DNA of 32,000 nt, taken from contig JBAZYG010000002.1 of NCBI GenBank assembly GCA_041659445.1, forward strand, positions 30,001 to 62,000, given 5' to 3'. Under the pieces are notes generated by a model. It was not told the origin of the DNA, searched no databases, and worked only from the letters and a program-made list of their open reading frames with translations. Below are positions 1 through 13,370 of this stretch, piece after piece. Numbering within the stretch: the first letter of the stretch is position 1; each line of letters opens with the position of its first letter. The DNA comes from Candidatus Saccharimonadota bacterium. GTDB lineage: Archaea > Nanobdellota > Nanobdellia > Pacearchaeales > GW2011-AR1. The translations under genes and the position numbers were made by a program.

Positions 1-285
1 TAGAGCAACAAATAACCTATAATCTCCTCCTGCAAAAAACCTTGAATAATATAAAGCATTTCCCAAAACAAAAAATATTGCTAAACCAATTAAACCATTA
101 TAAAAAAAATTTATTTCACTAAAACTCTCTCCTGAAAATAATGTATAAAAAAATCTAAAACCTAAAATAAAAATAATCAAAGAATAATTAATCCAACTAT
201 CAATTTCTCTTTTTTTAATATCTTGAATTAAAGCTAATAAAATCCAAATAAATCCAAAAACTAATAAAATTATTATTTCAAGCAT
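1..285 (-). CDS. Prepilin/preflagellin peptidase (A24 family, FlaK/PibD/EppA-like), N-terminal part only; the gene runs off the left edge
   Basis: Absent from the ORF track because there is no stop in the window. My translation of the minus strand from ATG at 285 is MLEIIILLVFGFIWILLALIQDIKKREIDSWINYSLIIFILGFRFFYTLFSGESFSEINFFYNGLIGLAIFFVLGNALYYSRFFAGGDYRLFVAL, open to base 1. It is a polytopic membrane protein with a first Asp motif (IQDIKKREI) and a second Asp in GGDxRL, the two-aspartate signature of A24 peptidases. It lies at the distal end of a prepilin cluster. Confidence 0.6.
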   Translation of the reverse strand, partial: MLEIIILLVFGFIWILLALIQDIKKREIDSWINYSLIIFILGFRFFYTLFSGESFSEINFFYNGLIGLAIFFVLGNALYYSRFFAGGDYRLFVAL

Positions 286-306
286 AAACTTAAATTAGAG
301 AAGATA

Positions 307-314
307 ATTTAAAA
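307..314 (-). promoter_or_regulatory. TATA-like box (TTTTAAAT on minus strand), -22..-29 from the peptidase ATG
   Basis: Same spacing as the other boxes listed for this window. Confidence 0.3.
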
Positions 315-447
315 TTATTTCTTTTTTAAAGAAATATCTGAACTTCTCAAAGCCCCTCCTTTTTTATAGGGATGCTTTTTTTTCTCTTTCTGTTTATCTT
401 TTCTTTTATTTCTTTTATCTCCAAAACAATAATCACTCATTTTAGAA

Positions 448-897
448 TTATTCAATTGAAACAATACATCTCTCAGAGTCTTGTAAACCAGTAACTAATG
501 CACTAACATCATATCCTGCTTCTTGAGAATTAACAACCCCGATTTGATTATTTATTTTAACTTGACTACAAGATAAACCACAATCAATATCACAAGGATT
601 TACACTATAAATTTCAAATTCACTTAATCCTGCTAAAACATAACAACTTGTTTTTACTTTATTTCCTTCTCCATCTTTTATATCTCTTTGAGTATTACAA
701 AAGTCATATTTACTTTGAATAGAACAAGCAGAATCACAAGTATTCACAACATTATCAACGTTACTTGATTTAATAAAAGGTGCAACTTTATCCCAACCCA
801 TTGTAAAACCAAGAATTAAAACAACTAAAACAATAAGTCCTAATATCAATAAAATTATTGTATTAGTACTCATACTTTGACCTCTTTTGTTATTCAT
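448..897 (-). CDS. Type IV pilin-like protein (class III signal peptide) with an 8-Cys C-terminal domain; candidate major subunit
   Basis: The N-terminus is MNNKRG|QSMSTNTIILLILGLIVLVVLILGF: a basic stretch, Gly, then about 20 hydrophobic residues. Eight Cys lie in the globular part. It has its own consensus TATA box. Confidence 0.6.
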   Translation of the reverse strand: MNNKRGQSMSTNTIILLILGLIVLVVLILGFTMGWDKVAPFIKSSNVDNVVNTCDSACSIQSKYDFCNTQRDIKDGEGNKVKTSCYVLAGLSEFEIYSVNPCDIDCGLSCSQVKINNQIGVVNSQEAGYDVSALVTGLQDSERCIVSIE

Positions 898-918
898 AAT
901 TAAATCAAGTTAAATTTA

Positions 919-926
919 TTTATAAA
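919..926 (-). promoter_or_regulatory. TATA box TTTATAAA, -22..-29 from ATG 897
   Basis: Palindromic consensus archaeal TATA in the 37-nt gap upstream of the last prepilin gene. Confidence 0.45.
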
Positions 927-934
927 TCTTATTA

Positions 935-1345
935 TTAGTTAAATGAGTATTCTAAAACATACTGAACATTTTTCTCTTCAATTTTTTCTGAAAAAAAGTC
1001 TTTTAATTTATTAAAAAAAGATTCTGGTTTAATTTTAGATATTTTAATTGTTTTTAAATTTTCATTAAAAGAAATTTCAAAAGAATATCCTTCATTTTCC
1101 AGAACTGAAAAATCTATCTTGCTTAAAATTTGGTCATTACTTAAATTCAAATTTTCATAATGTTCCCATTGGTCAACATAAATATTCATTGCTCTAATAT
1201 CATCTACAACTAAAAAAGAATTATTAAATTTAAATTGCGAAACAAAAAAAGTGATTAATGCAAAAGTACAAAGTGCGAATATTCCTATAACTAAAATTGT
1301 AATTGGAACACTTGCTTTTTTTGAGATTATTTTTCTATTTTTCAT
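935..1345 (-). CDS. Pilin-like protein (class III signal peptide)
   Basis: N-terminus MKNRKIISKKA|SVPITILVIGIFALCTFALITFFV. The start overlaps the upstream stop by 4 nt (ATGA). Confidence 0.5.
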   Translation of the reverse strand: MKNRKIISKKASVPITILVIGIFALCTFALITFFVSQFKFNNSFLVVDDIRAMNIYVDQWEHYENLNLSNDQILSKIDFSVLENEGYSFEISFNENLKTIKISKIKPESFFNKLKDFFSEKIEEKNVQYVLEYSFN

Positions 1346-1671
1346 TTTAAATTATTTATAACTGCATCAATATCTGCAGGATTTTCTTTTTCATTCTCCC
1401 ATTTTTTTAAATTATTATAAATTTCATTTTTAATTGTGGGATTTCCAATTGAGGAATATACATAAATTGATTTCATTAAAATCAAATTCCCATGTGAAGA
1501 AATTTCATCAGAAAAAACACCTTGCTTAGCAGTTATGAGAGTTTTACCCTCTGATAAAAGAGATGTTGCAAAAACAAATAAAAATAAAACCACTAGAATT
1601 ACTACTGTTGCAATTATCCAACTAATAGTATCTCCTACTTGAGCAGTTTTATTTTTTTTATAATTTAACAT
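1342..1671 (-). CDS. Pilin-like protein (class III signal peptide)
   Basis: N-terminus MLNYKKNKTA|QVGDTISWIIATVVILVVLFLFVF. It overlaps both neighbours, which suggests translational coupling. Confidence 0.5.
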   Translation of the reverse strand: MLNYKKNKTAQVGDTISWIIATVVILVVLFLFVFATSLLSEGKTLITAKQGVFSDEISSHGNLILMKSIYVYSSIGNPTIKNEIYNNLKKWENEKENPADIDAVINNLK

Positions 1672-2197
1672 TTTGTTCAGTTTTTCTCACAATTGTCAAA
1701 ATTTTAATTAAGTAAACATTATCTGATACATCTGAAGAATAAAAATTATTTTCAACACACTTTACAATTTTTTCGTGATCTTTGTCTTCCAAATAACAAT
1801 CACTTTTCCAATTAGGATTGCCTTTTGAAATATTAAAAACAGGATTTAAAGAATTTTTTCTATTATAAATATCTACTTTAAAATATTCTTGAATTTCTCC
1901 ATCTTCATTATAATCCAAATAAATTGAGCATTTCTCTAAAAATTTATCTTCAAATTCTTTTGAAAAACTTCCATTAGAAATTAATTGGGAATTTAATTTT
2001 CCTCCCTTATCAATGCAATCTGCAATTTTTTCAGACAAAATTTGAGATTCAACTTCACGAACATCATAAGGAGAATTGTAAAATGAATTTACCATCAAAA
2101 CAATTGCAGTAGCAACTAAAATCAAAACCAAAAACCAATAAATAGAAATTATTTTTTCTTCTCCAAGTTTATTCTTTCTTTCAATAAAATTTAACAT
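1658..2197 (-). CDS. Pilin-like protein (class III signal peptide)
   Basis: N-terminus MLNFIERKNKLG|EEKIISIYWFLVLILVATAIVLMV. A 2-nt gap separates it from the upstream gene. Confidence 0.5.
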   Translation of the reverse strand: MLNFIERKNKLGEEKIISIYWFLVLILVATAIVLMVNSFYNSPYDVREVESQILSEKIADCIDKGGKLNSQLISNGSFSKEFEDKFLEKCSIYLDYNEDGEIQEYFKVDIYNRKNSLNPVFNISKGNPNWKSDCYLEDKDHEKIVKCVENNFYSSDVSDNVYLIKILTIVRKTEQNVKL

Positions 2198-2199
2198 TT

Positions 2200-2598
2200 T
2201 TATTCTAATTTTTTATCAATAGTTATTATATAAAAAATCCCATCACTATAAGCATTAACTTTTGCATCATTAAAATAAGAATAACTATATCCTCCTTTTT
2301 CAGTTAATTTTACCGTGACTGAATGCGTAATTTCATCTATAAAAACAACATTACTAAAATCAACAGAATTTTTTTCTGCTATTTCTTTTGCATCTTGCAT
2401 ATTAATTTTAATTATCATACCAAGACTAGAAGAATCTATTATCAATGCAATTTTTTTTGAATAAACTTGTTCTAAACTAATTGCACCTGCACCTTGTTTA
2501 ATTAAAAATAAAATTAAAATTATTAAAAAAACCAAATTTAATATTATAAAAATAACATTTTCAACTAGAATTTCACCATTCTTTTTTTTATCAAACAT
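2200..2598 (-). CDS. Pilin-like protein (class III signal peptide)
   Basis: N-terminus MFDKKKNG|EILVENVIFIILNLVFLIILILFLI. A TATA-like TTTATTAA sits at 2620-2627. Confidence 0.55.
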   Translation of the reverse strand: MFDKKKNGEILVENVIFIILNLVFLIILILFLIKQGAGAISLEQVYSKKIALIIDSSSLGMIIKINMQDAKEIAEKNSVDFSNVVFIDEITHSVTVKLTEKGGYSYSYFNDAKVNAYSDGIFYIITIDKKLE

Positions 2599-2641
2599 AT
2601 TTTTAAGAATGATTTTTAATTAATAAAACTTTTTATAAAAA

Positions 2642-3568
2642 TTAAGAAAGAGTTTCTATGTTTTTACATCCAATAGAATTTAATTCTTCTGAAGGAGATT
2701 CTATTAAAGATGGCGGAATCATTTCTCCACCCCATGTAGATTGAACAACCGGTGCTAAAAAGTATGCCCCAGTTCCTGTAGCTGCAGAAGCCCCACCAAC
2801 AATTGCAAATGAAGCCCAAAGACTGGCACTTCCTGTAAAAGGAGCTAAAATAATCCCTGTTGCAATAATTCCCCCTCCAATAGCACCTCCGACAGCATAA
2901 CCTAATTTACTAACATCACTAGTAACTCCAATTAAAACTTTATATTGTTTATCTAAGTTTATTTTACCGAAAGAAACAGAACTAATATTTTCCAAATTTA
3001 AAAAAGAATTATAATTATTTGTTCCATATAAATATTCTGAATAAGTAATTTCTTTTTCATTCATTTTTGTTTCTGCTATATATTTGTAAAAATTTTCTTT
3101 ATCAAATTCCCCAGATTCAAAACCAGAAATTCCCTTAACACTATCATCAAAAGCTACTTGCGCGCAAAATGAACAATACATTTCTGGAAATGCTTCTTTT
3201 CCAATGTAATTTAATTCACCCTCGCCAAACATCCACCAACAATCAGATAATTCTAATGCAAGGGCTTGATAAACTTCATCAGATGTTTTTACTTTGACTT
3301 TTTCTGGTTTTAAAAATTGTTCACAAGTTCCATCTTTTGTAATACAAACATATTGTGTTTCACATTTTAAAGGAACAGATTCTGTAGGAATTAATTTATT
3401 TGATCTTAAAACAATTGAATTATGACAAACTTCTGCTTCGCTTTCTTGTCCTAAATTTAATTTAATTAAAAAATAAAGCAAGATTATAAAACTAAGAATT
3501 AAAATAATCAACAAAACAATTTGTTGTGTTGTAAGTTCTCCACGTTTATTCTTTTTATTATTCAACAT
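2642..3568 (-). CDS. Large pilin-like protein with a Cys-rich ectodomain and a C-terminal Gly-rich double hydrophobic segment
   Basis: The track ORF starts at 3583. I prefer Met6 (ATG at 3568), giving MLNNKKNKRG|ELTTQQIVLLIILILSFIILLYFLI. The C-terminus reads GYAVGGAIGGGIIATGIILAPFTGSASLWASFAIVGGASAATGTGAYFLAPVV. Confidence 0.55.
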   Translation of the reverse strand: MLNNKKNKRGELTTQQIVLLIILILSFIILLYFLIKLNLGQESEAEVCHNSIVLRSNKLIPTESVPLKCETQYVCITKDGTCEQFLKPEKVKVKTSDEVYQALALELSDCWWMFGEGELNYIGKEAFPEMYCSFCAQVAFDDSVKGISGFESGEFDKENFYKYIAETKMNEKEITYSEYLYGTNNYNSFLNLENISSVSFGKINLDKQYKVLIGVTSDVSKLGYAVGGAIGGGIIATGIILAPFTGSASLWASFAIVGGASAATGTGAYFLAPVVQSTWGGEMIPPSLIESPSEELNSIGCKNIETLS

Positions 3569-3569
3569 T

Positions 3570-3671
3570 TTACATTGCTCCAATTTTTCGTAAAAGTAAA
3601 TATATTCCTGCTAAAGCCAAAATGAATAATGCAATCCATAAAATATATTTTCCAACATCATCCAAATCCAT
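3570..3671 (-). CDS. Possible 33-aa single-TM micro-protein
   Basis: Absent from the track. My translation is MDLDDVGKYILWIALFILALAGIYLLLRKIGAM. The stop TAA (3570-3572) abuts the ATG at 3568 of the next gene, and the start overlaps the end of the upstream gene by 14 nt. Confidence 0.2.
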   Translation of the reverse strand: MDLDDVGKYILWIALFILALAGIYLLLRKIGAM

Positions 3672-4185
3672 ATTTTGTTACCTCTATTTTGTTATTTACT
3701 TTTTTAATTTGAATATTTGTAAAACCATTACTTAATTTTTCAATTGGAATTTCTTCAAAAGAATTTAAGTTTTCAATGATTAAACAAGTGCCGTCCTCAG
3801 AGCATTCTTTTTCTTGACGATTTTCTGCAGTATAAACAAGATAATCTTCTCTTACACTATCACAAATACAAAGACAATTTGAATTAGAACAAGAATCTGG
3901 TTTTCTAACATCTCCGACAAAACTGAAAATTGACCATTTTAGAGGAGAAATTTCATTTACTTTTCCAACAAATGTCGAATTATATTGAATCAAATTTATA
4001 TTTTCCGAAATTCTTTCAATAGTTGATTTTGCTTGTAAAAGTCTTTTTTGATCAATATTTGAAAAATAAATTGCAGAGAGCAACCAAACTAAAAGTATAA
4101 TTCCGATTAATCCTAAAACGATTTTAATTACTTCTGAAGCCAAAAGCATTCCATTTTTATTTTTCACATTAGATAATTTTTTCAT
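3658..4185 (-). CDS. Pilin-like protein (class III signal peptide), Cys-rich
   Basis: N-terminus MKKLSNVKNKNG|MLLASEVIKIVLGLIGIILLVWLL. It contains a CSNSNCLCICDS...ECSEDGTC cluster. ATGA overlap with the upstream small ORF. Confidence 0.55.
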   Translation of the reverse strand: MKKLSNVKNKNGMLLASEVIKIVLGLIGIILLVWLLSAIYFSNIDQKRLLQAKSTIERISENINLIQYNSTFVGKVNEISPLKWSIFSFVGDVRKPDSCSNSNCLCICDSVREDYLVYTAENRQEKECSEDGTCLIIENLNSFEEIPIEKLSNGFTNIQIKKVNNKIEVTKYGFG

Positions 4186-4355
4186 TTTAATAAATAAAGA
4201 ATATTTTGTAAAGAAGCATTTCCTCCTGTTGGAAGTCCTTTAAAAAATTCAATAAATTTATCTTTAAAAATAAAATAAACTCCCAAAACAACAGCCACAA
4301 CTAAAAAAACACCGAGAATTATTTTTATAACTTGTTCAATTGTAATTTCACTCAT
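4182..4355 (-). CDS. Small (57-aa) single-TM protein
   Basis: Absent from the track. My translation is MSEITIEQVIKIILGVFLVVAVVLGVYFIFKDKFIEFFKGLPTGGNASLQNILYLLK. It is tightly coupled on both sides. No basic or Gly cleavage motif is present. Confidence 0.35.
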   Translation of the reverse strand: MSEITIEQVIKIILGVFLVVAVVLGVYFIFKDKFIEFFKGLPTGGNASLQNILYLLK

Positions 4356-4356
4356 T

Positions 4357-4512
4357 TTATCTAAACCTAAAAAAATTTTTTATTTGTGTAATTGCATCAA
4401 TACCTTTTGCTTTTAAAACAATACTTCCTATTACTAAAATTACTAAAATTGCTATTGCAATCAAAATCCAGGGAAGATATTCTGAAACAGTTCCTCTTTT
4501 AATTTTTTTCAT
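4357..4512 (-). CDS. Small (51-aa) prepilin-like protein
   Basis: Absent from the track. My translation is MKKIKRG|TVSEYLPWILIAIAILVILVIGSIVLKAKGIDAITQIKNFFRFR. It has a class III-type KRG motif followed by a hydrophobic helix. Confidence 0.45.
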   Translation of the reverse strand: MKKIKRGTVSEYLPWILIAIAILVILVIGSIVLKAKGIDAITQIKNFFRFR

Positions 4513-4557
4513 TAATTATATTTATTAAAGAATGTTAATAAACTTTTTCAAATAGAA

Positions 4558-6726
4558 TTATACTAAATTACCTAGGACAACAGCACTAAGAATTGTTAAA
4601 GCCAAAATTGAAATTAAAGCAACAATAAAATACATTAAAATTCCCTTGTTTAAATTCAAACCTGTTCTATTTATTTTTTCTAATTTATCTTCCCCAGAAT
4701 CAATTATAACTAAAGTTGAAGTTAAAATAAAAATTACTTGAATTAAATAAATTCCGACAGAGATTTGTAAGAAATATGGAGAAATCATTGCAGTCATATC
4801 AAAAATATCTAAAACTCCAGACAAACCACCTAAAGAACTTACAGATTCATTACTTAATTGGGCTAAATTTAATTTACTTAAAATAGAAGTAATCATCGAC
4901 GCTAAACCCACAACAATTCCTGAAAGTAATGGTGCTAAAAAAGTCATATTACTTTTCATATCCGAAACAATTTCAGCAAGCATATCATTAAGTCTTGCAG
5001 TAATCTTGTTAATATTTTTAACATATTCAGAAATACTCATTAAACTAACTGCAGCAATTTTTAATCCTTTTTTACTTGATTCAATTAAAATTTTCATAGA
5101 AATAGAAATTAAACTAGAAGGATAAACATTTATTGCACCTTGTCGTTTATCAAAAATTGATTTTTCAACACTCATTCCCATTTGTTGAATATTATAATTT
5201 ACTTTTCTAAAGAAGTCTCCTGTAACTAAATTTTTTGAAGATTCTGCAACTTTTCCAAATGCTAATTCAGTAGGTGTTCCATTTCCTAAACGATTACCTA
5301 ATTGAAATAAAGAATTGTTAAATTCTTTTTCAAGTTCTTTTGTTTTTCTTCTTTCAACAATAAGTTCTTTTGTTTTATTTTTATATGCGCTTGCGAAAAA
5401 AATTGCAATTCCTAAAGGAAAAAACATTCCCAAAATTAATGAGCCAATTCCAAATGGGCCTTTAACTCCCGAAGCTGTTGTTATAAATCCAAAAAAAGGA
5501 GAATCTCCTAAGAAACTAATTCCTAATTGAGAAAAAGTATAATCTTTTTGCAAACCAATTAATTCTGGAAAACCTGTAAATTGAAAAATTAAAGGAATTA
5601 ATCCTATAATTAAAAAAGGTAATGCTAAAAAGAAAGCATTAGTATAATGTTTTTTCTGTCGATATTTTGGATATAAACGATTTCTTTCAAGTAAATTAAC
5701 TTCCCCATAACCTCCTGGTCTTAAAACTAAAACTTTATCAGTCAAATAAAAAACTAAAAAAGGCACAATCAAATTAAAAATAATAAAAACATGAACATAA
5801 TTAAAAAATTCTCCAATCATTGCAGAAGCTAAAGGAAGTAAAGCCAAACCTAAAGTTGGTAAAACAACTCCAAGCATATACACATTTGTCAAAGGAGCTC
5901 TAACATCATGAGTAAACTTTAACATTTTGTCATAAACACCTTCTAAAATAACTTGCAAAGATTTTTCAAGAGCGTCAATTCTTCGAGAATTATCTGGTTC
6001 AAATAAACTACTTTCAATTAAATGAAATGCTTCAATAAATTCTGTAGAATAATCTCTCCATGATTCAAGATAATTATCTAAACTTTCTTTTATTGTAGAA
6101 AATTTTCCGATTTCAACATCATAAAATATTTTTTTGAAATCCAATGCTAAAGGATAATCTAAGTGCTCAGAAGCAAATGCAATTGCTTTTTCTAAATTTG
6201 GAGTATGTCTCATGTAAACAACGACGTAAAGCACTGCTGGAACCATTTGACTACTTGCTTTAAGCCTCCATTTTTTAGCAAGTCTCTCAGGATAATTATT
6301 TAAAAAAGTAAATAAAAAAATTGAAAAGGAAATAATTAAAACAAAAAACAAAACAGGAAAATACTGGAAACCTCCTTTAACCAAAGCCACTGCAACAGAA
6401 ATTATTAATCCTAAAAAGAAAACTAAAATAAAAGACATCACAGCCAAACCAACAGCTTGCCAAGATTCAATATTCAAATGTGCAGATGAAATTGCCTTAC
6501 CTAATCTTAATTCATCTTTTGCAGAAGGTTTTATTTTAATTGATTTTCCAAGATTATTTGCCCATTTTTCATAACCTTTTAATTCAACAGAAAGTTCGTC
6601 TTTAAATTTTAAATAAGATTGACTATAATTTCCTGCATTTGATAAATTTGTAGTATTTATTGAATTTTCAATTTTAGAACTATATTTTTTTAGAACATCT
6701 TTTACATCTAAATTATCCCTAGGCAT
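4558..6726 (-). CDS. Type IV pilus/archaellum platform membrane protein (FlaJ/TadC/PilC-like, two T2SS-F-type cytoplasmic domains)
   Basis: A 722-aa polytopic protein with two helical soluble segments separated by TM bundles. The first is RLKASSQMVPAVLYVVVYMRHTPNLEKAIAFASEHLDYPLALDF. The second is LFQLGNRLGNGTPTELAFGKVAESS...SLISISMKILIESSKKG. It lies in the same cluster as the secretion ATPase and prepilins. An SD-like GTGAT sits 6-10 nt upstream of the ATG. Confidence 0.7.
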   Translation of the reverse strand: MPRDNLDVKDVLKKYSSKIENSINTTNLSNAGNYSQSYLKFKDELSVELKGYEKWANNLGKSIKIKPSAKDELRLGKAISSAHLNIESWQAVGLAVMSFILVFFLGLIISVAVALVKGGFQYFPVLFFVLIISFSIFLFTFLNNYPERLAKKWRLKASSQMVPAVLYVVVYMRHTPNLEKAIAFASEHLDYPLALDFKKIFYDVEIGKFSTIKESLDNYLESWRDYSTEFIEAFHLIESSLFEPDNSRRIDALEKSLQVILEGVYDKMLKFTHDVRAPLTNVYMLGVVLPTLGLALLPLASAMIGEFFNYVHVFIIFNLIVPFLVFYLTDKVLVLRPGGYGEVNLLERNRLYPKYRQKKHYTNAFFLALPFLIIGLIPLIFQFTGFPELIGLQKDYTFSQLGISFLGDSPFFGFITTASGVKGPFGIGSLILGMFFPLGIAIFFASAYKNKTKELIVERRKTKELEKEFNNSLFQLGNRLGNGTPTELAFGKVAESSKNLVTGDFFRKVNYNIQQMGMSVEKSIFDKRQGAINVYPSSLISISMKILIESSKKGLKIAAVSLMSISEYVKNINKITARLNDMLAEIVSDMKSNMTFLAPLLSGIVVGLASMITSILSKLNLAQLSNESVSSLGGLSGVLDIFDMTAMISPYFLQISVGIYLIQVIFILTSTLVIIDSGEDKLEKINRTGLNLNKGILMYFIVALISILALTILSAVVLGNLV

Positions 6727-6811
6727 TTTTAATCACTTCTTTTTATAGACAAAAATACTAATAAAAAATAATTAATAAATGTTTAGAATTAAAGAATTTA
6801 AAGTTAAAAAA

Positions 6812-8185
6812 TTATTTTGTAAATATATTCTTAATTTTTTGACCAAATGTAAAACCATTAGAACTTGAACTGTCTATTTCTTCTCCTTGTTGATTACTTC
6901 CTGGAACTTGATTAACAATGCATTTTGCCCCATAGTTTCCATAGCTCTTACAAATTTTTGATTCACTAACACAATCATAAACTTTTTCCCAGACTTCATA
7001 ATAAAAGTCTCCAACAATTGTTGGTATTTCTAAACCATCATAATTATTATTTGGATCATTAATTGCAATTGCTTGTTTTTTCACGCAATAATATTCAACA
7101 ATATAATCTCCTGATTCAATAGGACTATTTGATTCACTTCCATCAGAGCAAAAATCTTTTTTTAAAGTCCATGGAGAACCCTGATAAACACCGTCTCTAA
7201 AAGTAGTTCTTCCAGAAAGTAAATATGCATCACCATTTCCTTTATTTGCAAAAGAATCTGTTTCTTTGCATTCATTATATAATCCTATAATTGCACCACT
7301 ACTTCCAGCAGCATCAGTTTCTCCACTTTCAGTTGCTCCAGAATTATCATTCACATTTGTTTTTGTGAAAAAATTTCTAAATCTTTCTCTGAAAGTTAAT
7401 GTTGAAGTATCTGTATTTTGATTTTGTGCTTGTGCTTGAACATTTCCAGAACCATCAAGACATTTTGCACCTTGAACTCCAAAATCTTGACAATTGCAAG
7501 AATAAGTTTCTTGTTTTAATTCAAAAGTTCCGTCGTTGAGTTCATAACAATAATACTCATTAAGAATTGTCCCGCTTTCAGCAGGTTGTGCTTCTTCGCT
7601 TCCTGTACAATAATCTTTAGCTAATTTTTTGTATTGAGGGTTTTCCCAATAAGTTGTTCTACCATAAATATAAGGGGCATTTCCATTTCCCCCATTTGCA
7701 TAAGCATCTGTTTCATAACATCCAATATAAGTTCCTGTTAAAGAAACAGTTCCACTGCTCGGATTTGAAGAATCACTTTCTTTTTCCCCAGAAGCTACTA
7801 AACTTGAATCTGATTTTGAATCGCCCACAGGAACAAAAATACCTTCAATACAATAATAACTAGAACCACTTTGTTGGACTACAACAATTGCACGATTATT
7901 ATTATCACAAAAACCTTCATGAAGAGAAACATTTGATTCACAATAATCTGTAAAAGAATTCCAAGTCGCATTTTCATAATAACTAAGAGTTCCTTTTTCA
8001 AAATAATTTATTCCAGTATCATTATCTGTGCAAGAATCAGAACTAGCTTGTGGAATATCTGCTGATGTAACTTGTCCTGAAATTTTTCCCCAAAAATTAG
8101 AAAACCATCCAGCAGAAGCAAAAGAAATTATAAAGACGAATATAAATAAAAACAAGAATACATTTGCAAATTTTTTATTAATCAT
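6812..8185 (-). CDS. Secreted Cys-rich repeat protein (three copies of a C-x-[DE]-[ST/N]-D...YYC module); function unknown, adhesin-like
   Basis: It has a Sec-type signal peptide, MINKKFANVFLFLFIFVFIISFASA|GW. The modules span aa 52-112, 156-242 and 306-422, joined by Ser/Gly/Asp/Gln-rich linkers. Details are in the findings. Confidence 0.7.
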   Translation of the reverse strand: MINKKFANVFLFLFIFVFIISFASAGWFSNFWGKISGQVTSADIPQASSDSCTDNDTGINYFEKGTLSYYENATWNSFTDYCESNVSLHEGFCDNNNRAIVVVQQSGSSYYCIEGIFVPVGDSKSDSSLVASGEKESDSSNPSSGTVSLTGTYIGCYETDAYANGGNGNAPYIYGRTTYWENPQYKKLAKDYCTGSEEAQPAESGTILNEYYCYELNDGTFELKQETYSCNCQDFGVQGAKCLDGSGNVQAQAQNQNTDTSTLTFRERFRNFFTKTNVNDNSGATESGETDAAGSSGAIIGLYNECKETDSFANKGNGDAYLLSGRTTFRDGVYQGSPWTLKKDFCSDGSESNSPIESGDYIVEYYCVKKQAIAINDPNNNYDGLEIPTIVGDFYYEVWEKVYDCVSESKICKSYGNYGAKCIVNQVPGSNQQGEEIDSSSSNGFTFGQKIKNIFTK

Positions 8186-8214: not shown

Positions 8215-8240
8215 TATTTTTATTTTTCAATACCAAAAAT

Positions 8241-10982
8241 TCATTCAAAATTATTTTTTATTTTACCAATAAAAGAATCTCTCCAATTATTTTTATTACA
8301 AGCTCCATTGAAGCATCCTTTTGAACAAGAAATATAATTTTCAGACCTCAACAATCCTGCAGGATCCCCTAACTCTCCGCAATACCATTCTCTTAAAGTG
8401 TTCTTATTAACACAAGAATCCTGTTCTATTCTTAAAATATTTTCAGAATAATCTCTAAAAGTTAAATTACCTTTTGTAAAATAATTCTTTCCACCATCAC
8501 TATCTACACATGTTTGCATGGTTTCATAACAATTGTAATTTAAATTAGATGTATCAGAATCTGAAATATATCTTGCTAAAAGAGGGTTTGAATCATCACA
8601 ATCTCTTTTTTCATTACAGAATAAAGGGCAAGTAGCAGGTTGGTTTTGAGAAATTCCCCAATTACAAAATCCATCATTATCTTTATCTACACAATTAGGT
8701 AATTTTCCTCGCTGATTTGAGATGATTATTGCATGCTTAACAGGATCAGCAGCTAAACCCGGAACAGATCTATAAGCATCATTATCTATTTCTATATAAG
8801 CATATCCTTCCCCGCCTCCGACCCAATCTTCACCATAACTATTTTTAAAAATCCACACCACACTTTCTTCTTTATCTTCCCATCCAACAAGAGCCATTGC
8901 ATGAGTCCAAGGGTAGTATGCTCCCGCAACCACCCCATAATTAATAATCATTTCTTTAAAATTATATTCTCTAGCACATTTATAAAATTCATTAAAATAT
9001 TCTTGCCCAATATACAAAACATATTCTGGATTGTCACATTTTTCACTACAATTTGAATTTTGACCCAAGTAAGGATAGCATTCTTCTTCACTAATTCCCT
9101 TCTGAGAAACATAATTTAAAGCATATTCTGAGATACCACCTTCACAATCTCCTCCATTAAAACAAGTAGAAACAAGTTCTTGTTCTGATAAATTTAAATT
9201 TAAATGCTCATTAAAGAAAAGATTTGTACTTGCCTCTATAGCTCCAACTGTTGCAAAAGCCCAGCAACTCCCACAAATATATCCTTGATGATTTAATCCT
9301 GTAACCCAATTTTCCCCATGCCTCTCTCTCCAATCAAAAGATTCTGGAAAAATAAAAGATTTTGAAGAAATAGATGTAGTCAAATTAAAGGTATTAGTTG
9401 ACTCGTTAAAAGAGTAATTTATGTTCCCGAATTCAAAACCAATATAAATTTTCCCTTGAATTGTCTTTATAGTTATTAATTCCTCCAAACAAGAATTCAA
9501 ATTACTAAATTTCATAGAAAATGTACTATTATCTCTAATAAGCGAACTTCCCGGCACATTTATTTCATTAGGAAAAGCATAATTTTCAAATATTGAAACA
9601 TTATAACTTTCTCCAACAAAGCTCACATTAATTAATTCATTCACAAACTGGACATTTATATCTTGGGAATTATTTGAGTAATAAAGATAACTGTAATAGT
9701 TTATAGGATTCCCATTATAACTAACATTTAAAATGCTTGGTGCAAATTCCATCCTAAAATAGTCTTCATAAAGATAAATCCATAACCAACCAACCATATA
9801 TCCTTCTTTTGAAAAATTAAGCACATACGTTTCATGATTATTTCTCAACCCTTTAGTAAAATTAAATGAATACGGAATAATTCCCACAGAAAGAGGAGGG
9901 TTTGCCATATTTCGGTGAACTGAAACACTTGCTTCTGAAGGGTCGCTTGTAAAATTAAATTGAGTTGTTGGAAGTTTGGAAAGGTTATAGTTTGGGCTCA
10001 CATAATCTCTTATATTTAAATTTGTATTTTGCTCTTCTAAGAAAGGTTTTATTTTATAAACTCCTCCAGAATAAAAGAAAAAATCATAAGGAATTCTTAA
10101 TATTGAATTTTCATATTGTAAATTTTTAAGTTCTCTATAAAGTTTTTTTGAGATTTCATTAGTATTAAAAGTAACAGATTTTTTATTTATCAAATTTGAG
10201 CTTTTAATTAAATTTAATTTAGTATTGTATCTTTGATTTCTTAATTGATTTTCAGTAAAATCCGTTCTTTTATTTTCAGAATTTTGAAAATAAATTTTAT
10301 CTAAATTTAAATTTGCATTCAAATATTCTACTCTTAATTCTTTTATCTTTTTAGGACTATCAAATAAACAGGTTTCTTCACAAAAATTATTAAAACTAAA
10401 AGTTTCTTGTTCAATAAAAACAAAATCACTTCCAAAAACTAACCATTCTAAACCACCCTCTTCTATAGCAACAACTCTTACAAAGCCAGAAGAAGAAAAA
10501 ACTTCTCCAGATCCAGAAATACTTATCGCAGAAACATCTTCTTCATGTGGATTGAAAATAATTTTTTCTATATTCTCTTTAGGAATTTGCTCATTTTCTA
10601 TTTGATTAAAAATTAAATCATAGGAAAATTTTTTATTTAAATTTTCATTAGAAGCAAGAGTATTCTTTTTAATTGAATAAATATTTAAAAGGGAATTATC
10701 AAAAGTTCTTGTTTCAGAAGAAAAAGCAGAACTAGTTAAGGTAGTTTTTTCTTCCAATAAATTAATCTCAATTTCTTTAATCTCTTCTTGTTTTCCTTCT
10801 GTTTTTAAAATTTCAGAAGTAACTTCTTTTTCATCTTCTAAAAACAATGAATAACTCTTATCCCCAATAGATTTATCAGAAATTACTTTTCCTGTTTTAA
10901 TAGAAAAACCTAAAATTAAAACTAAAAAAATGAGCAATAAAAGTAATATAAAAAACAAACATTGAAGTATCTTTTTGTGCAT
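8241..10982 (-). CDS. Secreted or membrane-anchored multidomain papain-like (C1 family) cysteine peptidase
   Basis: The N-terminal signal anchor is MHKKILQCLFFILLLLLIFLVLILGF. The C1 domain spans aa ~546-735. It carries the catalytic Cys in QGYICGSCWAF (Cys573, nt 9264-9266), His in WTHAMALVGW (His694) and Asn in KNSYGEDWVGGGEGYAYI. The C-terminal region has CVDKDNDGFC...DCDDSNP and a Cys module shared with the neighbouring gene. Confidence 0.8.
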   Translation of the reverse strand: MHKKILQCLFFILLLLLIFLVLILGFSIKTGKVISDKSIGDKSYSLFLEDEKEVTSEILKTEGKQEEIKEIEINLLEEKTTLTSSAFSSETRTFDNSLLNIYSIKKNTLASNENLNKKFSYDLIFNQIENEQIPKENIEKIIFNPHEEDVSAISISGSGEVFSSSGFVRVVAIEEGGLEWLVFGSDFVFIEQETFSFNNFCEETCLFDSPKKIKELRVEYLNANLNLDKIYFQNSENKRTDFTENQLRNQRYNTKLNLIKSSNLINKKSVTFNTNEISKKLYRELKNLQYENSILRIPYDFFFYSGGVYKIKPFLEEQNTNLNIRDYVSPNYNLSKLPTTQFNFTSDPSEASVSVHRNMANPPLSVGIIPYSFNFTKGLRNNHETYVLNFSKEGYMVGWLWIYLYEDYFRMEFAPSILNVSYNGNPINYYSYLYYSNNSQDINVQFVNELINVSFVGESYNVSIFENYAFPNEINVPGSSLIRDNSTFSMKFSNLNSCLEELITIKTIQGKIYIGFEFGNINYSFNESTNTFNLTTSISSKSFIFPESFDWRERHGENWVTGLNHQGYICGSCWAFATVGAIEASTNLFFNEHLNLNLSEQELVSTCFNGGDCEGGISEYALNYVSQKGISEEECYPYLGQNSNCSEKCDNPEYVLYIGQEYFNEFYKCAREYNFKEMIINYGVVAGAYYPWTHAMALVGWEDKEESVVWIFKNSYGEDWVGGGEGYAYIEIDNDAYRSVPGLAADPVKHAIIISNQRGKLPNCVDKDNDGFCNWGISQNQPATCPLFCNEKRDCDDSNPLLARYISDSDTSNLNYNCYETMQTCVDSDGGKNYFTKGNLTFRDYSENILRIEQDSCVNKNTLREWYCGELGDPAGLLRSENYISCSKGCFNGACNKNNWRDSFIGKIKNNFE

Positions 10983-11003
10983 TTATCCCTCAATCAAATA
11001 AAG

Positions 11004-11011
11004 ATTATAAA
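11004..11011 (-). promoter_or_regulatory. TATA-like box TTTATAAT, -22..-29 from ATG 10982
   Basis: Same spacing as the other boxes. A GAGGG lies 5-9 nt upstream of the ATG, so an SD-led internal start is an alternative. Confidence 0.35.
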
Positions 11012-11036
11012 TCTTTTCAATTATTACAATAAATTC

Positions 11037-13370
11037 TCACATTTTTCTTTTTTTGATTTCAGAATTCAACCATTTTTGCCATCTTGGAAAAACTTTATCA
11101 CTTAAAGGCAAACCAATTTCGCTAATAGTTTCATTAGAAAGTTTATGAAATTCATGATTTGAAAATTTATTAAATTCTGCTTCTAATAATTCAGGCATAT
11201 TATTCTTTTCAGATATTTCAACTATTTCTTTTTTTATTTTTGCCCTTAATAGGATATTGTCATAAACAGCGTCCCAATTTCCAGCCCAGCCTTTTACTTT
11301 TGAGGCAATTTCCTTAATAATTTCACTTTCACCGTTGATTAAATCATCACTAGGTTCTAAATCATCTTTTTCAACATTATAATTCATTAAATCCACAAAT
11401 CCTTTTTCAAGAATTGGATCTTTTTCCCAATGTTTTCGAACTTCTGAAATTTGTAATAGTCTTCTCCAAGATTGCAAACCATCAGCAGATTTTATTGGAT
11501 TAGCGACGGCAATTATATCTGTAGCTTTAAAACTTGTAACAGGAACTTCTAAATCATTTACAACTCTATCAAAAACACCATAAGGAGAAGCACCATGAAT
11601 TGTTCCTGCAACAACATTCGCTAATGCACCAACTCTCATTGCTTCATAAAGAGCTTTTGCCTCGACACTTCTAACTTCACCGACGATTAAGCAACTATCC
11701 CCTAATCTCAAACTTGTCCTAATTCCGTCGTCAGCAGAAACTTCTGACGTGGTTTTTAATAAAGCAGAACGAACTTTCATTCTCAAAATATTAAAATCTA
11801 ATTTTCTCATTGATTCAACAGGCAATTCCAAGGAATCCTCAACAGTAATTATTCTTGACTTTGGATTTATTTCTAACATCAAACTTCCTAACAAAGAAGT
11901 TTTACCAGAAGACCTTGTTCCTGCAACTAAAATAGTTCTTGCACCATCAATCATAAAACTTAACAAACCTGCAGCCAAAGGATTCAACATTTTATTTTGA
12001 ATAAACAAAGGAAGAGTCCAAGGACTTTCTCTATGTCTTCGAATAGAATATGCTAAACCATCAGGACTTAAAGGATTCTGAACAATTGCAATTCTCGCTC
12101 GAATTTTTCCAATTTCCAATTGAGTATCTAAAATAGGGTTTGCCTCGTCTAAAGGTCTTCCTGAAATCATTCTAAATTTTGCAGCCCAAGAATTTGCATC
12201 TTCAAAACTTGGTAAAATGTTTGTAGAACATTCATCATAAAGATTATGTCTAATATAAACAGGAACTTGTGAAATAGGAGCATTCAATGAAATATCTTGC
12301 AAATTTTTATCTTGAAGCAAAACTTCAATTAATCCAAAACCAATAGTATGTCTAACCAAAATATTTGCTAATTTATTTATTTCATTATAATCCAATTTAA
12401 TTTTTTTACTCTCTGCTAAATCTCGAATCAAATCTTTCGAAATATTAAAAAAAACCTGTCTTGTTCTTTCAGTGTCAGTAAATTCTTCTGCTTTAGGTTG
12501 ATGCTCAATTAAAACTCTTCTTGCTAAATTTAATAAATTATTTTGTTCTTCAGATAATGAATTTTCAGGAGGATTTAGATGATAAATTAATTTTGATTCA
12601 TCTTTTTTCTTAAAAATTGTTACTTCAGATACATCAAAATCTTCCATTGAAATAGTATATTGATCCATAATTTCTGCATCTAACGGAAAATCTGAAATGA
12701 GTCTCGTAAATGTGAAATTAGGAATAATATCTGCTCTGAAAATTTTAGAATAAATTTCTCTATTTCCTTTAGAATACCCTTCTAAATAAGGAACTGCTCT
12801 TTGAATTATTTTTGTTGATTTAATTAAATTAAAAATTTTATCAAGTAAAATTAAATAATTTCCTTGGTCTGACCTTTCAGTTCCAGAAATGTTTTCTAAT
12901 AGAATTTTTGCTTCAATTAAAAATTTTTTCAATTCAAAATATGCCCATATCGGATCTTTTTTCAAAAGATACAAAAAAGAAAATAAATCATTATATCTTC
13001 TAGAAAAATATTTTTCAGAAGTTCTTGCAATTTTTTCATGCGACAAAATTTTTTCTTGTTTTAAAAGATAAACATAAAGACTTGCAATTTCCAAAAGGCA
13101 AGAAGTTTCATAAAAATCATAATTATAATTTTTTTCCTGAACAAAAACAATTCTAGAAACATTTGAATTCTCAATTAAAGCATCAATTGTTCTTTCCATA
13201 ACTTCTGAAAATTCAGACAAGTTCGGTGAATAAGGAACATTCAAATAATTTATATACAAAACATCTTCAGCACCTTCTCTTCTAACCTCATAAAAATACG
13301 GTTTCGAATTCCTGTCAAATATCATAAATACTTTAAGTAAAATCAGTTTAAATGTTTTTACAAAATACAA
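11037..13370 (-). CDS. Type IV pilus/secretion ATPase (FlaI/PilB/GspE/VirB11 superfamily) with a long N-terminal extension
   Basis: Walker A is VAGTRSSGKTS (nt 11898-11921, verified by back-translation) and Walker B is RIITVEDSLEL. It also has LIVGEVRSVEAKALYEAMRVG and the His box GTIHGASP. The true start may be Met16 (ATG 13325), which has ATTTAAAC-like sequence at -22..-27. Confidence 0.85.
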   Translation of the reverse strand: MYFVKTFKLILLKVFMIFDRNSKPYFYEVRREGAEDVLYINYLNVPYSPNLSEFSEVMERTIDALIENSNVSRIVFVQEKNYNYDFYETSCLLEIASLYVYLLKQEKILSHEKIARTSEKYFSRRYNDLFSFLYLLKKDPIWAYFELKKFLIEAKILLENISGTERSDQGNYLILLDKIFNLIKSTKIIQRAVPYLEGYSKGNREIYSKIFRADIIPNFTFTRLISDFPLDAEIMDQYTISMEDFDVSEVTIFKKKDESKLIYHLNPPENSLSEEQNNLLNLARRVLIEHQPKAEEFTDTERTRQVFFNISKDLIRDLAESKKIKLDYNEINKLANILVRHTIGFGLIEVLLQDKNLQDISLNAPISQVPVYIRHNLYDECSTNILPSFEDANSWAAKFRMISGRPLDEANPILDTQLEIGKIRARIAIVQNPLSPDGLAYSIRRHRESPWTLPLFIQNKMLNPLAAGLLSFMIDGARTILVAGTRSSGKTSLLGSLMLEINPKSRIITVEDSLELPVESMRKLDFNILRMKVRSALLKTTSEVSADDGIRTSLRLGDSCLIVGEVRSVEAKALYEAMRVGALANVVAGTIHGASPYGVFDRVVNDLEVPVTSFKATDIIAVANPIKSADGLQSWRRLLQISEVRKHWEKDPILEKGFVDLMNYNVEKDDLEPSDDLINGESEIIKEIASKVKGWAGNWDAVYDNILLRAKIKKEIVEISEKNNMPELLEAEFNKFSNHEFHKLSNETISEIGLPLSDKVFPRWQKWLNSEIKKRKM

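What the first reader, a model, noticed from the sequence alone, without database searches (positions are those of the whole stretch)
1..13370. 13-kb type IV pilus-like cluster carrying a secreted papain-like protease and a Cys-rich repeat protein between the motor genes
All genes lie on one strand. In order they are a FlaI/PilB-type ATPase, a 913-aa secreted C1 peptidase, a 457-aa secreted Cys-rich protein and a FlaJ/TadC-type platform protein. About ten small genes and an A24 prepilin peptidase (partial) follow. Eight small proteins show the same class III signal architecture of a basic run, G or A, polar residues and a ~20-residue hydrophobic helix: KRG|T, KNG|M, KRG|E, KNG|E, KLG|E, KTA|Q, KKA|S, KRG|Q. 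No FlaH/KaiC-like, FlaF/G or archaellin-type genes are present, so this looks like an adhesive or secretory pilus rather than an archaellum. The unusual part is that two large exported non-pilin proteins sit between the ATPase and platform genes. This suggests they are cargo, tip or accessory components of the filament, for example a host-surface attachment and degradation apparatus in an episymbiotic small-genome archaeon. I know of no characterised archaeal pilus locus with this composition.
Basis: partly seen in the sequence, partly recalled or inferred. Interest (0 to 1): 0.8.

Follow-up and report, generated by a model that had tools for sequence, protein, structure and literature searches.

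The report
Archaeal pilus locus with variable slot
A tiny-genome archaeon (Pacearchaeota) carries a well-conserved type IV pilus-like gene cluster, but the protease and cysteine-rich protein between its motor genes are strain-specific occupants of a hypervariable insertion slot, not a fixed part of the pilus machine.

Summary
On the minus strand lie a T2SSE-family ATPase, a 913-aa C1 peptidase with an intact catalytic set, a 457-aa Cys-rich internally duplicated protein, a 722-aa T2SSF-type platform, eight class III-signal pilin-like genes and a partial A24 peptidase.

In 164 related Pacearchaeota loci the ATPase, platform, pilins and peptidase are syntenic, but no locus has an orthologue of the protease or the Cys-rich protein. 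The ATPase|platform junction has no gene in 60 of 107 loci. In the rest it holds unrelated genes: type I R-M, nucleotidyltransferase pairs, glycosyltransferase, lipase, beta-propellers and Cys-rich exported proteins.

A conserved promoter-like box lies directly upstream of the platform gene, so the junction is probably a transcription-unit boundary. The nearest C1 homologues sit in bacterial contexts without an adjoining pilus cluster.

One lead remains. The 457-aa protein belongs to a family with a conserved signal-peptide-plus-motif N-terminus. In the DNA sampled, this family occurs only at boundaries of this cluster, which allows a TcpF/CofJ-like pilus-docked exoprotein reading.

Verdict: a new variant of archaeal type IV filament loci, of moderate interest.

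The parts
1..285 (-). A24 prepilin (class III signal) peptidase, N-terminal 95 codons; the gene runs off the window
   Evidence: PF01478 E=1.1e-8. The full 283-aa gene with PF01478 is on the source contig.
315..440 (-). Conserved 41-aa highly basic small ORF, function unknown
   Evidence: Homologous 45-aa ORF at the same position in L084. Called as a gene in L172 and L081.
448..897 (-). Pilin-like protein pil149 (KRG|Q leader, 8 Cys). Candidate major or variable pilin.
   Evidence: Class III-like N-terminus conserved in 68 homologues. Has its own TATA-like box at -34. Tandemly multiplied in some loci.
935..1345 (-). Pilin-like protein pil136 (KKA|S)
1342..1671 (-). Pilin-like protein pil109 (KTA|Q)
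1658..2197 (-). Pilin-like protein pil179 (KLG|E)
2200..2598 (-). Pilin-like protein pil132 (KNG|E)
   Evidence: TATA-like box at -34.
2642..3568 (-). Pilin-like protein pil313 (KRG|E; 308 aa from M6). Also has a Gly-rich hydrophobic C-terminal segment.
   Evidence: (called as 308 aa).
3658..4185 (-). Pilin-like protein pil175 (KNG|M)
4182..4355 (-). Conserved 57-aa hydrophobic protein with no class III leader (MSEITIEQVIKIILG...)
   Evidence: Conserved in 50 homologues. Fails the class III rule.
4357..4512 (-). 51-aa Flp-sized pilin-like protein (KRG|TVSEY...)
   Evidence: Consensus KKG|IVSEYLPW conserved in 86 homologues. Own TATA-like box at -35.
4558..6726 (-). Polytopic platform protein, T2SSF (GspF/PilC/TadC/FlaJ) superfamily, two-lobed
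   Evidence: More than 3400 homologues, 55-81% identical in Pacearchaeota. 17 of 31 family members hit PF00482. Foldseek domain matches to EpsF, OutF, PilC and SpoIIIAB, TM-score on target 0.55-0.62.
6763..6788 (-). Promoter-like element TTCTAAACATTTATTAATTATTTTTT upstream of the platform gene (coordinates approximate)
   Evidence: The core motif is present within 160 nt upstream of the platform start in 89 of 148 loci, against a background of 0.009 per 160 nt.
6812..8185 (-). 457-aa exported Cys-rich protein. Sec-type signal plus the GWFSNFWGKISG motif, then two homologous Cys-rich modules, each ending in TFxxxxxNxFTK. Slot occupant.
   Evidence: Singleton cluster in the 15-billion-protein collection. 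No orthologue in 164 loci.
8241..10982 (-). 913-aa exported or membrane-anchored papain-like (C1) peptidase. It has a novel N-terminal region of about 545 aa and a Cys-rich C-terminal module. Slot occupant.
   Evidence: No orthologue in 164 loci.
11037..13325 (-). Secretion/assembly ATPase of the T2SSE/VirB11 superfamily, 762 aa from M16 (the ORF extends to a TTG at 13370)

Best explanation
The window holds the Pacearchaeota version of an archaeal type IV filament (pilus) locus.

Core machine. The locus encodes an assembly ATPase, a fused two-lobed T2SSF platform, a Flp-sized 51-aa pilin, seven larger pilin-like proteins with class III signals, and an A24 prepilin peptidase. Inferred mechanism: the peptidase removes the short basic leaders, and the ATPase-platform motor extrudes a thin adhesive filament. 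In a presumably host- or particle-associated small-genome archaeon the filament would serve attachment.

The slot. The ATPase gene and the platform-pilin genes are separate transcription units. The boundary between them is a permissive, hypervariable slot in which different lineages have accumulated unrelated accessory genes.

This genome. Here the slot holds two independently promoted genes for Sec-exported, disulfide-rich surface or secreted proteins. One is an apparently active papain-like protease whose catalytic domain is closest to bacterial homologues. The other is a duplicated Cys-rich module protein. They most likely act as strain-specific extracellular factors for proteolysis and binding. 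They are linked to the pilus genes by genome position, and perhaps by shared expression conditions, but they are not structural or obligatory parts of the filament.

Shown: gene identities, synteny, slot variability, promoter-like boxes. Inferred: filament assembly, export, protease activity, independence from the pilus.
For: Core machine:
- T2SSE ATPase.
- Platform tied to T2SSF through its family and its fold.
- Eight conserved class III-like N-termini.
- A24 peptidase.
- The order ATPase-platform-pilins-peptidase is kept across 164 loci.

Slot:
- Of 107 loci with a co-oriented ATPase, 60 have a gap of 350 bp or less and 47 carry inserts of 0.4-9.8 kb.
- 37 of 53 clusters of slot proteins are singletons.
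- Inserts include type I HsdR/S/M, nucleotidyltransferase pairs, a GT4 glycosyltransferase, LPG-synthase TM, DUF1846 and radical SAM proteins. They also include a lipase, beta-propellers and a mucin WxxW domain.
- The protease and the Cys-rich protein have no orthologue in any locus.
- The closest relatives carry other genes in the slot.
- The Cys-rich protein is a singleton cluster.

Transcription-unit boundary:
- A conserved promoter-like box sits about 47 nt upstream of the platform start in 89 of 148 loci and is retained in the window.
- TATA-like boxes lie about 34 nt upstream of the C1 and Cys-rich genes, and T-runs follow their stop codons.

Homologues elsewhere:
- The best C1 homologues (35-44% identity) lie in bacterial or CPR contexts.
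- Proteins sharing the Cys-rich tail are likewise not next to pilus genes.
Against: - Slot genes are co-oriented with the cluster in 83 of 90 cases, which fits read-through co-expression.
- Exported Cys-rich proteins fill about 12 of 43 non-redundant occupied slots. Some of them carry hydrolase or binding domains.
- The leader-motif family of the 457-aa protein was found only at boundaries of this cluster: 15 ORFs at E<=2e-13 and none elsewhere in the fetched loci or the window (the 107 co-oriented loci alone hold 1.63 Mb outside the slot). This hints at a specific tie to the pilus.
- I could not measure how the family is distributed across whole genomes.
- There are no expression, proteomic or imaging data.
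- The promoter calls are motif-based only.
Confidence: 0.6

Rival explanations
1. The exported proteins encoded beside the platform gene are pilus-dependent exoproteins or tip-docked adhesins and effectors. After Sec export, the conserved N-terminal segment of the mature protein (GWFSNFWGKISG...) would dock onto a minor pilin. Pilus extension would then carry the protein through the S-layer to the host surface, as TcpF and CofJ are exported by type IVb pili. The variable bodies (protease, lipase, propellers, lectin-like modules) would be interchangeable payloads.
For: - The leader-motif family is found only at boundaries of this cluster in the sampled DNA. It occurs in the upstream slot, just downstream of the platform, and after the peptidase.
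- The bodies are hypervariable, whereas the N-terminus keeps BLAST- and HMM-level similarity.
- Hydrolases and binding domains recur among these proteins.
- 83 of 90 slot ORFs are co-oriented with the cluster.
- Precedent: the TcpF export signal is the N-terminal segment of the mature protein, and it binds the tip minor pilin (PMC10120004; PMC6048534 and PMC9565799).
Against: - 60 of 107 loci have nothing in the slot, so no payload is needed for the system.
- The same slot holds cytoplasmic defence genes.
- The C1 protease itself does not match the leader HMM (3 bits).
- The inserted genes have their own promoter-like boxes.
- The shared position could reflect vertical descent of one fast-evolving gene rather than selection for linkage.
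- No interaction or expression data exist. The AF2 model of the 457-aa protein was unusable (pLDDT 37).
Confidence: 0.2
2. The conserved cluster is mainly a DNA- or nutrient-uptake (competence-type) or secretion pseudopilus rather than an adhesive pilus. The slot genes are unrelated passengers.
For: - Short Flp-sized pilin and many minor pilin-like genes.
- R-M systems sit in the slot in at least one genome.
- T4P-linked DNA uptake is proposed for ultra-small cells (PMC9938205).
Against: - No ComEC, DprA or DNA-binding component was found in the window's Pfam scans or in the gene annotations of the three syntenic neighbourhoods I read.
- No retraction ATPase is seen.
- The function cannot be decided from sequence.
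Confidence: 0.12
3. The cluster is an archaellum (FlaI/FlaJ motility apparatus) whose remaining genes lie outside the window.
For: The highest-scoring NCBIfam model for the ATPase is FlaI (E=9.5e-41).
Against: - That score is 140 bits against a cut-off of 550.
- The PDB ranking puts afGspE (E=5.9e-28) and CpaF (E=1.7e-24) ahead of FlaI (E=6.5e-17).
- No archaellin, FlaH/KaiC, FlaF/G or FlaC/D/E was found in the window, in the 10 kb beyond its left end, or in syntenic relatives.
- All seven components are expected in any archaellum (PMC4858521).
Confidence: 0.02

Closest known systems
Archaeal type IV filament (TFF/T4P) loci, e.g. the Epd pilus of Methanococcus ('system 1') and minimal Aap-like systems (Makarova et al. 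2016, PMC4858521; Sivabalasarma & Albers 2026 preprint)
   Same: - The ATPase, platform, class III-signal pilins and A24 peptidase form one neighbourhood.
- There are many minor pilin-like genes.
- Secreted non-pilin proteins (putative adhesins, S-layer-like) are already reported in several archaeal T4P loci.
   Different: - The platform is a single fused 722-aa protein, not the two platform genes of system 1.
- The ATPase has a long N-terminal region specific to this lineage.
- The pilins hit no Pfam pilin family.
- The ATPase and platform genes are separated by a hypervariable slot.
- I found no description of this Pacearchaeota locus in the papers I read. One preprint stated that T4P components are missing from DPANN genomes.
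Bacterial Tad/Flp pili (CpaF/TadA ATPase, TadB/TadC, Flp pilin)
   Same: - The ATPase matches CpaF at E=1.7e-24 and TIGR03819 TadA at E=6e-35.
- The pilin is very short (51 aa, about 44 aa mature) and has an EY pair just after the predicted cleavage site.
   Different: - The TadA score is below the family cut-off (121 against 373 bits).
- The EY pair sits at +4/+5, not +5/+6 as I recall for Flp.
- There is no TadZ, secretin or other Tad accessory gene.
- The host is an archaeon with one membrane.
TcpF (Vibrio cholerae TCP) and CofJ (ETEC CFA/III): exoproteins encoded in a type IVb pilus operon
   Same: A Sec-exported, non-pilin protein is encoded among the pilus genes. It has a short conserved segment at the mature N-terminus.
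   Different: - TcpF and CofJ are conserved single substrates of their systems. Here the occupant is absent from most relatives and differs between close relatives.
- No binding or export evidence exists.
- There is no outer membrane to cross.
Genomic-island or defence-island hotspots between conserved core genes
   Same: - One junction is empty in many genomes and filled with unrelated, mostly singleton accessory genes in others.
- The accessory genes include R-M and nucleotidyltransferase pairs.
   Different: - The hotspot lies inside a functional gene cluster.
- It is strongly co-oriented with that cluster (83 of 90 ORFs).
- No integrase, transposase or tRNA turned up in the slot proteins I listed and scanned, or in the tRNA scan of the window.
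Prokaryotic secreted papain-like (C1A) peptidases
   Same: The catalytic Gln/Cys/His/Asn are present. Identity to metagenomic bacterial C1 peptidases is 35-44% over the catalytic domain.
   Different: - No I29 propeptide was detected.
- An N-terminal region of about 545 aa has no detectable homologues, apart from a 56-aa fragment cluster.
- The C-terminal Cys-rich module is shared with the neighbouring 457-aa protein.

Membership tests
Type IV filament (T4P-like) system | Secretion/assembly ATPase of the T2SSE/VirB11 superfamily | tested here: met
   PF00437 at 57.5 bits against a cut-off of 24.9. PDB hits to afGspE, CpaF and FlaI.
Type IV filament (T4P-like) system | Polytopic platform protein of the T2SSF (GspF/PilC/TadC/FlaJ) family | tested here: met
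   The window protein itself has no Pfam hit. However, 17 of 31 diverse family members hit PF00482, best E=3.2e-10. The AF2 model (pLDDT 65) has a helical domain matching EpsF, OutF, PilC and SpoIIIAB at TM-score on target 0.55-0.62. The sequence profile against PDB was not significant (GspF E=0.9).
Type IV filament (T4P-like) system | Pilin subunits with class III signal peptides (short basic leader, G/A at -1, hydrophobic helix of about 20 residues) | tested here: met
   Eight products fit my own rule, against 0 of 19 outside the cluster. The motif is conserved in 38-99 homologues per family. FlaFind was not available. No Pfam pilin family matched. Cleavage is not shown.
Type IV filament (T4P-like) system | Dedicated A24 prepilin peptidase | tested here: met
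   PF01478 at 35.9 bits against a cut-off of 26.5 on the partial gene. The full 283-aa gene is on the source contig.
Archaellum | FlaH (KaiC-like), FlaF/FlaG, archaellins and FlaC/D/E or FlaX alongside FlaI/FlaJ | tested here: not met
   None in the window's scanned ORFs, in the 10 kb to its left, or in syntenic relatives. The FlaI equivalog model scores 140 bits against a cut-off of 550.
Tad/Flp pilus | Flp-type short pilin with the G/XXXXEY processing motif (motif recalled from memory) | tested here: inconclusive
   The 51-aa pilin reads KRG|TVSEY, consensus KKG|IVSEY. The EY pair is one residue closer to the Gly than in the recalled Flp motif.
Tad/Flp pilus | TadA/CpaF-type ATPase at equivalog level, plus TadZ, RcpA secretin and TadD-G accessories | tested here: not met
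   TIGR03819 scores 121 bits against a cut-off of 373. No accessory homologues were found in the cluster.
Papain-like C1 peptidase | C1 fold with catalytic Cys and His (plus Gln and Asn) | tested here: met
   PF00112 at 109 bits against a cut-off of 20.7. CGSCWAF, THAMALVGW and KNSYG align with the DPP1 active-site segments. Activity was not tested.
Pilus-dependent exoprotein (TcpF/CofJ type) | Encoded within the pilus cluster and Sec-exported | tested here: met
   Position between ATPase and platform. The N-terminus looks like a Sec signal (h-region followed by ASA|G) by inspection only.
Pilus-dependent exoprotein (TcpF/CofJ type) | Conserved partner of its pilus system | tested here: not met
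   No orthologue in 164 loci. The slot has no gene in 60 of 107 loci.
Pilus-dependent exoprotein (TcpF/CofJ type) | N-terminal export signal that binds a tip minor pilin; export requires the pilus motor | not testable with these tools
   No multimer modelling or experiment was available. The single-sequence model of the 457-aa protein was unusable.

The most novel reading that the evidence does not exclude
Pacearchaeota use their conserved type IV pilus as a delivery or display device for interchangeable exoproteins. A short conserved segment follows the Sec signal (consensus SAG-[WF]F[SG][ND]x[WF]xK[IF][TS]G). It would act as a docking or export signal for a minor pilin, analogous to the TcpF and CofJ export signals. 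The gene next to the platform would be a swappable payload cassette carrying a protease, lipase, propeller or lectin-like module, tuned to the host or substrate. This would be the first archaeal pilus-dependent secretion or effector-display system, and a molecular handle on how DPANN cells attack or attach to their hosts.
Probability: 0.15. Interest if true: 0.8.

Novelty: new variant of a known kind. Interest (0 to 1): 0.45.

Why it matters
Pacearchaeota are abundant, uncultivated, small-genome archaea, and how they make contact with other cells is unknown. One groundwater study even stated that type IV pilus components are missing from DPANN genomes.

This analysis shows a complete, highly conserved pilus locus across the group. 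Its platform and ATPase are 55-80% identical between species. It escapes routine annotation because the platform and the pilins have no direct Pfam hits.

The analysis also shows that the eye-catching protease is not part of that machine. It sits in a hypervariable slot where lineages keep strain-specific surface proteins, hydrolases and defence genes. That slot is a practical place to look for host-specificity and effector genes. The leader-motif family gives a concrete, testable hypothesis of pilus-linked exoproteins.

Tried and rejected
- The full-length C1 protease search returned nothing. The representative of its 90% cluster is a 56-aa fragment, so the self-hit was invisible, and low-complexity words probably swamped the candidate list. 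Repeating the search with aa 524-913 worked.
- Direct Pfam, NCBIfam and PDB sequence searches of the platform, the pilins and the Cys-rich protein gave no significant hits. A profile of the platform family against PDB gave only GspF at E=0.9.
- The single-sequence AF2 model of the 457-aa protein had pLDDT 37 and I did not use it.
- The idea that the N- and C-terminal aromatic/basic motifs are amphipathic membrane-binding helices of the MinD type was only weakly supported. Hydrophobic moments beat shuffles for tails in relatives (L009, L024, L140) but not clearly for the window's own motifs.
- My class III rule also flagged the Cys-rich protein (KFA|N). I reject this because the G/A is not conserved in its family and a canonical VSA|G Sec cleavage site follows the h-region.
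- An archaellum reading is rejected.
- I looked for mobile-element hallmarks. No tRNA is in the window, and no integrase or transposase turned up among the slot proteins I listed and scanned.

Full report
**Source and setting**

The window has about 26% G+C. It encodes archaeal housekeeping genes: PolD DP2, a Hef-like helicase and ERCC4 nuclease, a class I aminoacyl-tRNA synthetase and others. The platform protein is 100% identical to NCBI WC812_03655 of a Candidatus Pacearchaeota MAG on a 221,868-bp contig. The organism is therefore a DPANN archaeon of the Pacearchaeota/Nanoarchaeota group.

**Check of the observation**

All genes from 1 to 13370 lie on the minus strand.

- ATPase. The 777-codon ORF has a T2SSE domain (E=1.2e-15). 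It matches afGspE (E=5.9e-28), CpaF (E=1.7e-24) and FlaI (E=6.5e-17) in the PDB. A homologue begins MVFDSTTDPYFFEIRREG, which aligns with M16 of the window ORF, so the gene probably runs 11037-13325 and encodes 762 aa.
- C1 peptidase. The 913-aa protein has a C1 domain at aa 546-735 (E=4.8e-31). The active-site segments CGSCWAF, THAMALVGW and KNSYG align with those of DPP1.
- Cys-rich protein. The 457-aa protein has 16 Cys and is an internal duplication. Modules at about aa 155-283 and 295-457 share 31% identity (E=1e-19), and each ends in TF-x5-N-x-FTK.
- Platform. The 722-aa membrane protein has no direct Pfam, NCBIfam or PDB sequence hit. Its family spans 990 clusters at 50% identity, and 17 of 31 diverse members hit T2SSF (PF00482, best E=3.2e-10). 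An AF2 model (pLDDT 65) has a helical domain that matches the cytoplasmic domains of EpsF, OutF, PilC and SpoIIIAB, with TM-score on target 0.55-0.62.
- Pilin-like genes. Eight of the nine small genes downstream of the platform carry a basic run, then G or A, then polar residues, then a hydrophobic stretch of about 18-20 residues. A simple rule finds this in all eight and in none of 19 products outside the cluster. The motif is conserved in 38-99 homologues per family.
- A24 peptidase. The partial gene at 1-285 is confirmed and is 283 aa on the source contig.

The description is therefore correct apart from minor boundary changes.

**Not an archaellum**

The FlaI equivalog model scores 140 bits against a cut-off of 550. 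No archaellin, FlaH, FlaF/G or FlaC/D/E was found in the Pfam scans of the window's main ORFs, in the annotated 10 kb beyond its left end, or in syntenic relatives. All archaella carry these seven components (PMC4858521).

**Conservation**

Scans of one-genome-per-species contigs and of metagenome contigs with the platform protein returned 160 loci at 54-77% identity. Look-ups of two closer homologues gave four more loci at 77% and 81%. BLASTP of every window protein against all ORFs of these 164 loci gave the following counts:

| Window protein | Loci with a hit |
|---|---|
| platform | 164 |
| ATPase | 123 |
| pil313 | 124 |
| pil132 | 114 |
| pil51 | 109 |
| A24 peptidase | 88 |

Many contigs are short, which limits these counts. 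The gene order is the same as in the window. The C1 protease and the 457-aa protein gave only three local hits to a leader or a C-terminal module, and no orthologue.

**The ATPase|platform junction is a hypervariable slot**

Among 107 loci with a co-oriented upstream ATPase, the gap is 350 bp or less in 60 and 0.4-9.8 kb in 47. The 43-44 non-redundant occupied slots hold 90 ORFs of at least 80 aa. Of these, 83 are co-oriented with the cluster. They fall into 53 sequence clusters, 37 of them singletons.

Pfam identifies a wide range of occupants:

- a complete type I R-M system (L008);
- HTH-nucleotidyltransferase proteins with a small partner, recurrent in several loci;
- a GT4 glycosyltransferase, an LPG-synthase-type membrane protein, DUF1846 and a radical SAM protein;
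- exported proteins with PQQ or LVIVD propellers, a mucin WxxW domain, DUF4215 repeats and a class 2 lipase/Tle3-like hydrolase.

The closest relatives of the window show the same turnover. At 81% platform identity, the slot holds a 538-aa Cys-rich exported protein plus an opposite-strand 206-aa gene. At 77%, it holds 118-aa and 284-aa genes.

**Why this junction**

In loci where the ATPase and platform genes are adjacent, the short spacer contains a strongly conserved element, TTC(T/C)AAA(C/G)ATTTATTAATT(A/C)TTTTT, followed by an AAAGAGG-like box before the start codon. The core is present within 160 nt upstream of the platform start in 89 of 148 loci, against a background of 0.009 per 160 nt. 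The window keeps it next to the platform gene at about 6763-6788.

I read this element as a BRE/TATA promoter, which is an inference. If so, the ATPase gene and the platform-pilin genes are separate transcription units, and insertions between them do not break an operon.

Similar A-rich/TTTAT(A/T) boxes lie about 34 nt upstream of the C1, Cys-rich, pil51, pil132 and pil149 start codons. T5-T6 runs follow the C1 and Cys-rich stop codons. This suggests that both inserted genes are transcribed on their own.

**Origin of the two inserted genes**

The 457-aa protein is a singleton at 90% identity in a collection of about 15 billion proteins. The C1 catalytic domain finds 174 homologues. The best are 35-44% identical. 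The four I looked up sit beside NiFe hydrogenase and RTX-type genes, a Clp protease, PBP and RuvABC genes, or FtsX and DivIC. These are bacterial, including probable CPR, contexts. One locus had an unrelated 448-aa T2SSE gene 1.2 kb away on the other strand. Two proteins that share only the Cys-rich tail are also unlinked to pilus genes. The protease's C-terminal module resembles modules of the 457-aa protein (36% over 47 residues, E=7e-5 for the pair).

**A lead that favours some tie to the pilus**

The N-terminus of the 457-aa protein (signal peptide ending ...SFASA, then GWFSNFWGKISGQV) is shared by slot proteins of relatives whose bodies are otherwise unrelated. An HMM built from eight such N-termini hits 15 ORFs at E<=2e-13, representing about 11 distinct loci, among all ORFs of the 164 loci and the window. 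Their positions are:

- eight in the upstream slot;
- two immediately downstream of the platform gene;
- one after the A24 peptidase;
- none in the other DNA searched (the 107 co-oriented loci alone hold 1.63 Mb outside the slot, cluster genes and flanks together).

Weaker matches lie in the slot (L039) and between the divergent coiled-coil gene and the ATPase (L107).

About 12 of 43 occupied slots hold an exported Cys-rich protein. The C1 protease itself does not match the leader HMM (3 bits).

This pattern fits either of two readings. One is descent from a single fast-evolving surface-protein gene that has stayed near the cluster. The other is selection for linkage. It is also what a TcpF/CofJ-type arrangement would look like. 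In type IVb pili a Sec-exported protein encoded in the pilus operon carries an export signal at its mature N-terminus, and that signal binds the tip minor pilin (PMC10120004; PMC6048534 and PMC9565799). I could not test binding, expression or the genome-wide distribution of the family.

**Literature**

Secreted non-pilin proteins (putative adhesins, S-layer-like proteins) are already noted in several archaeal T4P loci (PMC4858521). A 2026 preprint reclassifies archaeal TFF systems and mentions DPANN only for system 1, Aap-like and 4A loci. It mentions neither Pacearchaeota nor a protease. A groundwater preprint stated that T4P components are missing from DPANN genomes. T4P genes and their diversification are discussed for Nanoarchaeota in the strict sense (PMC6142677), and thin pili-like filaments were seen on a Micrarchaeon (PMC11329633). 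I found no description of the slot or of the leader family.

**Verdict**

The cluster is real. It is a lineage-wide, poorly annotated variant of the archaeal type IV filament locus. The protease and the Cys-rich protein are strain-specific occupants of a hypervariable, probably inter-operonic slot. The claim that they are filament cargo or tip components is not supported by conservation or by gene context. A weaker version of the idea, that variable exoproteins are functionally tied to the pilus, stays open at about 15-20% probability.

Noticed in passing
window 315-440 (-); L084:16233-16370: A conserved 41-45 aa, extremely basic ORF (MSDY..G..RNK.KDK.KEKKKHPYKKGG...) lies between the last pilin gene and the A24 peptidase in the window and its close relatives. 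Its function is unknown.
   Followed up: partly
window ~6763-6788 (-); upstream of the platform gene in 89 of 148 loci: A strongly conserved 25-nt element, TTC(T/C)AAA(C/G)ATTTATTAATT(A/C)TTTTT, lies about 47 nt before the platform start. It is more conserved than a generic TATA box would need to be, so it could include a regulator binding site.
   Followed up: partly
window 13403-13750 (+) and 13752-14462 (+): Two divergently transcribed coiled-coil proteins (115 and 236 aa) are syntenic with the ATPase gene in about 95 related loci. They may be cytoplasmic accessory or regulatory partners of the system.
   Followed up: no
L160:16335-18455, L120, L103 (pil149 homologues): The pil149-type Cys-containing pilin is tandemly multiplied (up to four copies) in some relatives. 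It has its own promoter-like box in the window. This makes it a candidate major or antigenically variable pilin.
   Followed up: no
window 2642-3568 (-), C-terminal ~90 residues: The 308-aa pilin-like protein has, besides its class III N-terminus, a Gly/Ala-rich hydrophobic C-terminal segment (GYAVGGAIGGGIIATGIILAPF...). This is unusual for a pilin and might be a second membrane anchor.
   Followed up: no
C-termini and inter-module linkers of exported slot proteins: window 6812-6850 and 8241-8285; L009, L024, L039, L083, L140: A short aromatic/basic tail (e.g. FGQKIKNIFTK, GFFRGLFGG, RLINWFERLFG) recurs at the C-terminus, and between modules, of otherwise unrelated exported proteins. It could be an amphipathic surface anchor or a sorting tag. 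The hydrophobic-moment test gave mixed results.
   Followed up: partly
L093:6354-9931 compared with L094:7382-9934: In one metagenome contig the leader-family slot gene seen intact in a near-identical contig is split by an inserted 311-aa gene. This looks like ongoing turnover inside the slot.
   Followed up: no
window 14463-15062 (-); slot genes in L053, L135, L150: The membrane protein encoded just beyond the divergent gene pair has paralogues (about 173 aa, ...QWEAAGIFAYALPFLLIF...) inside the ATPase|platform slot of other genomes.
   Followed up: no
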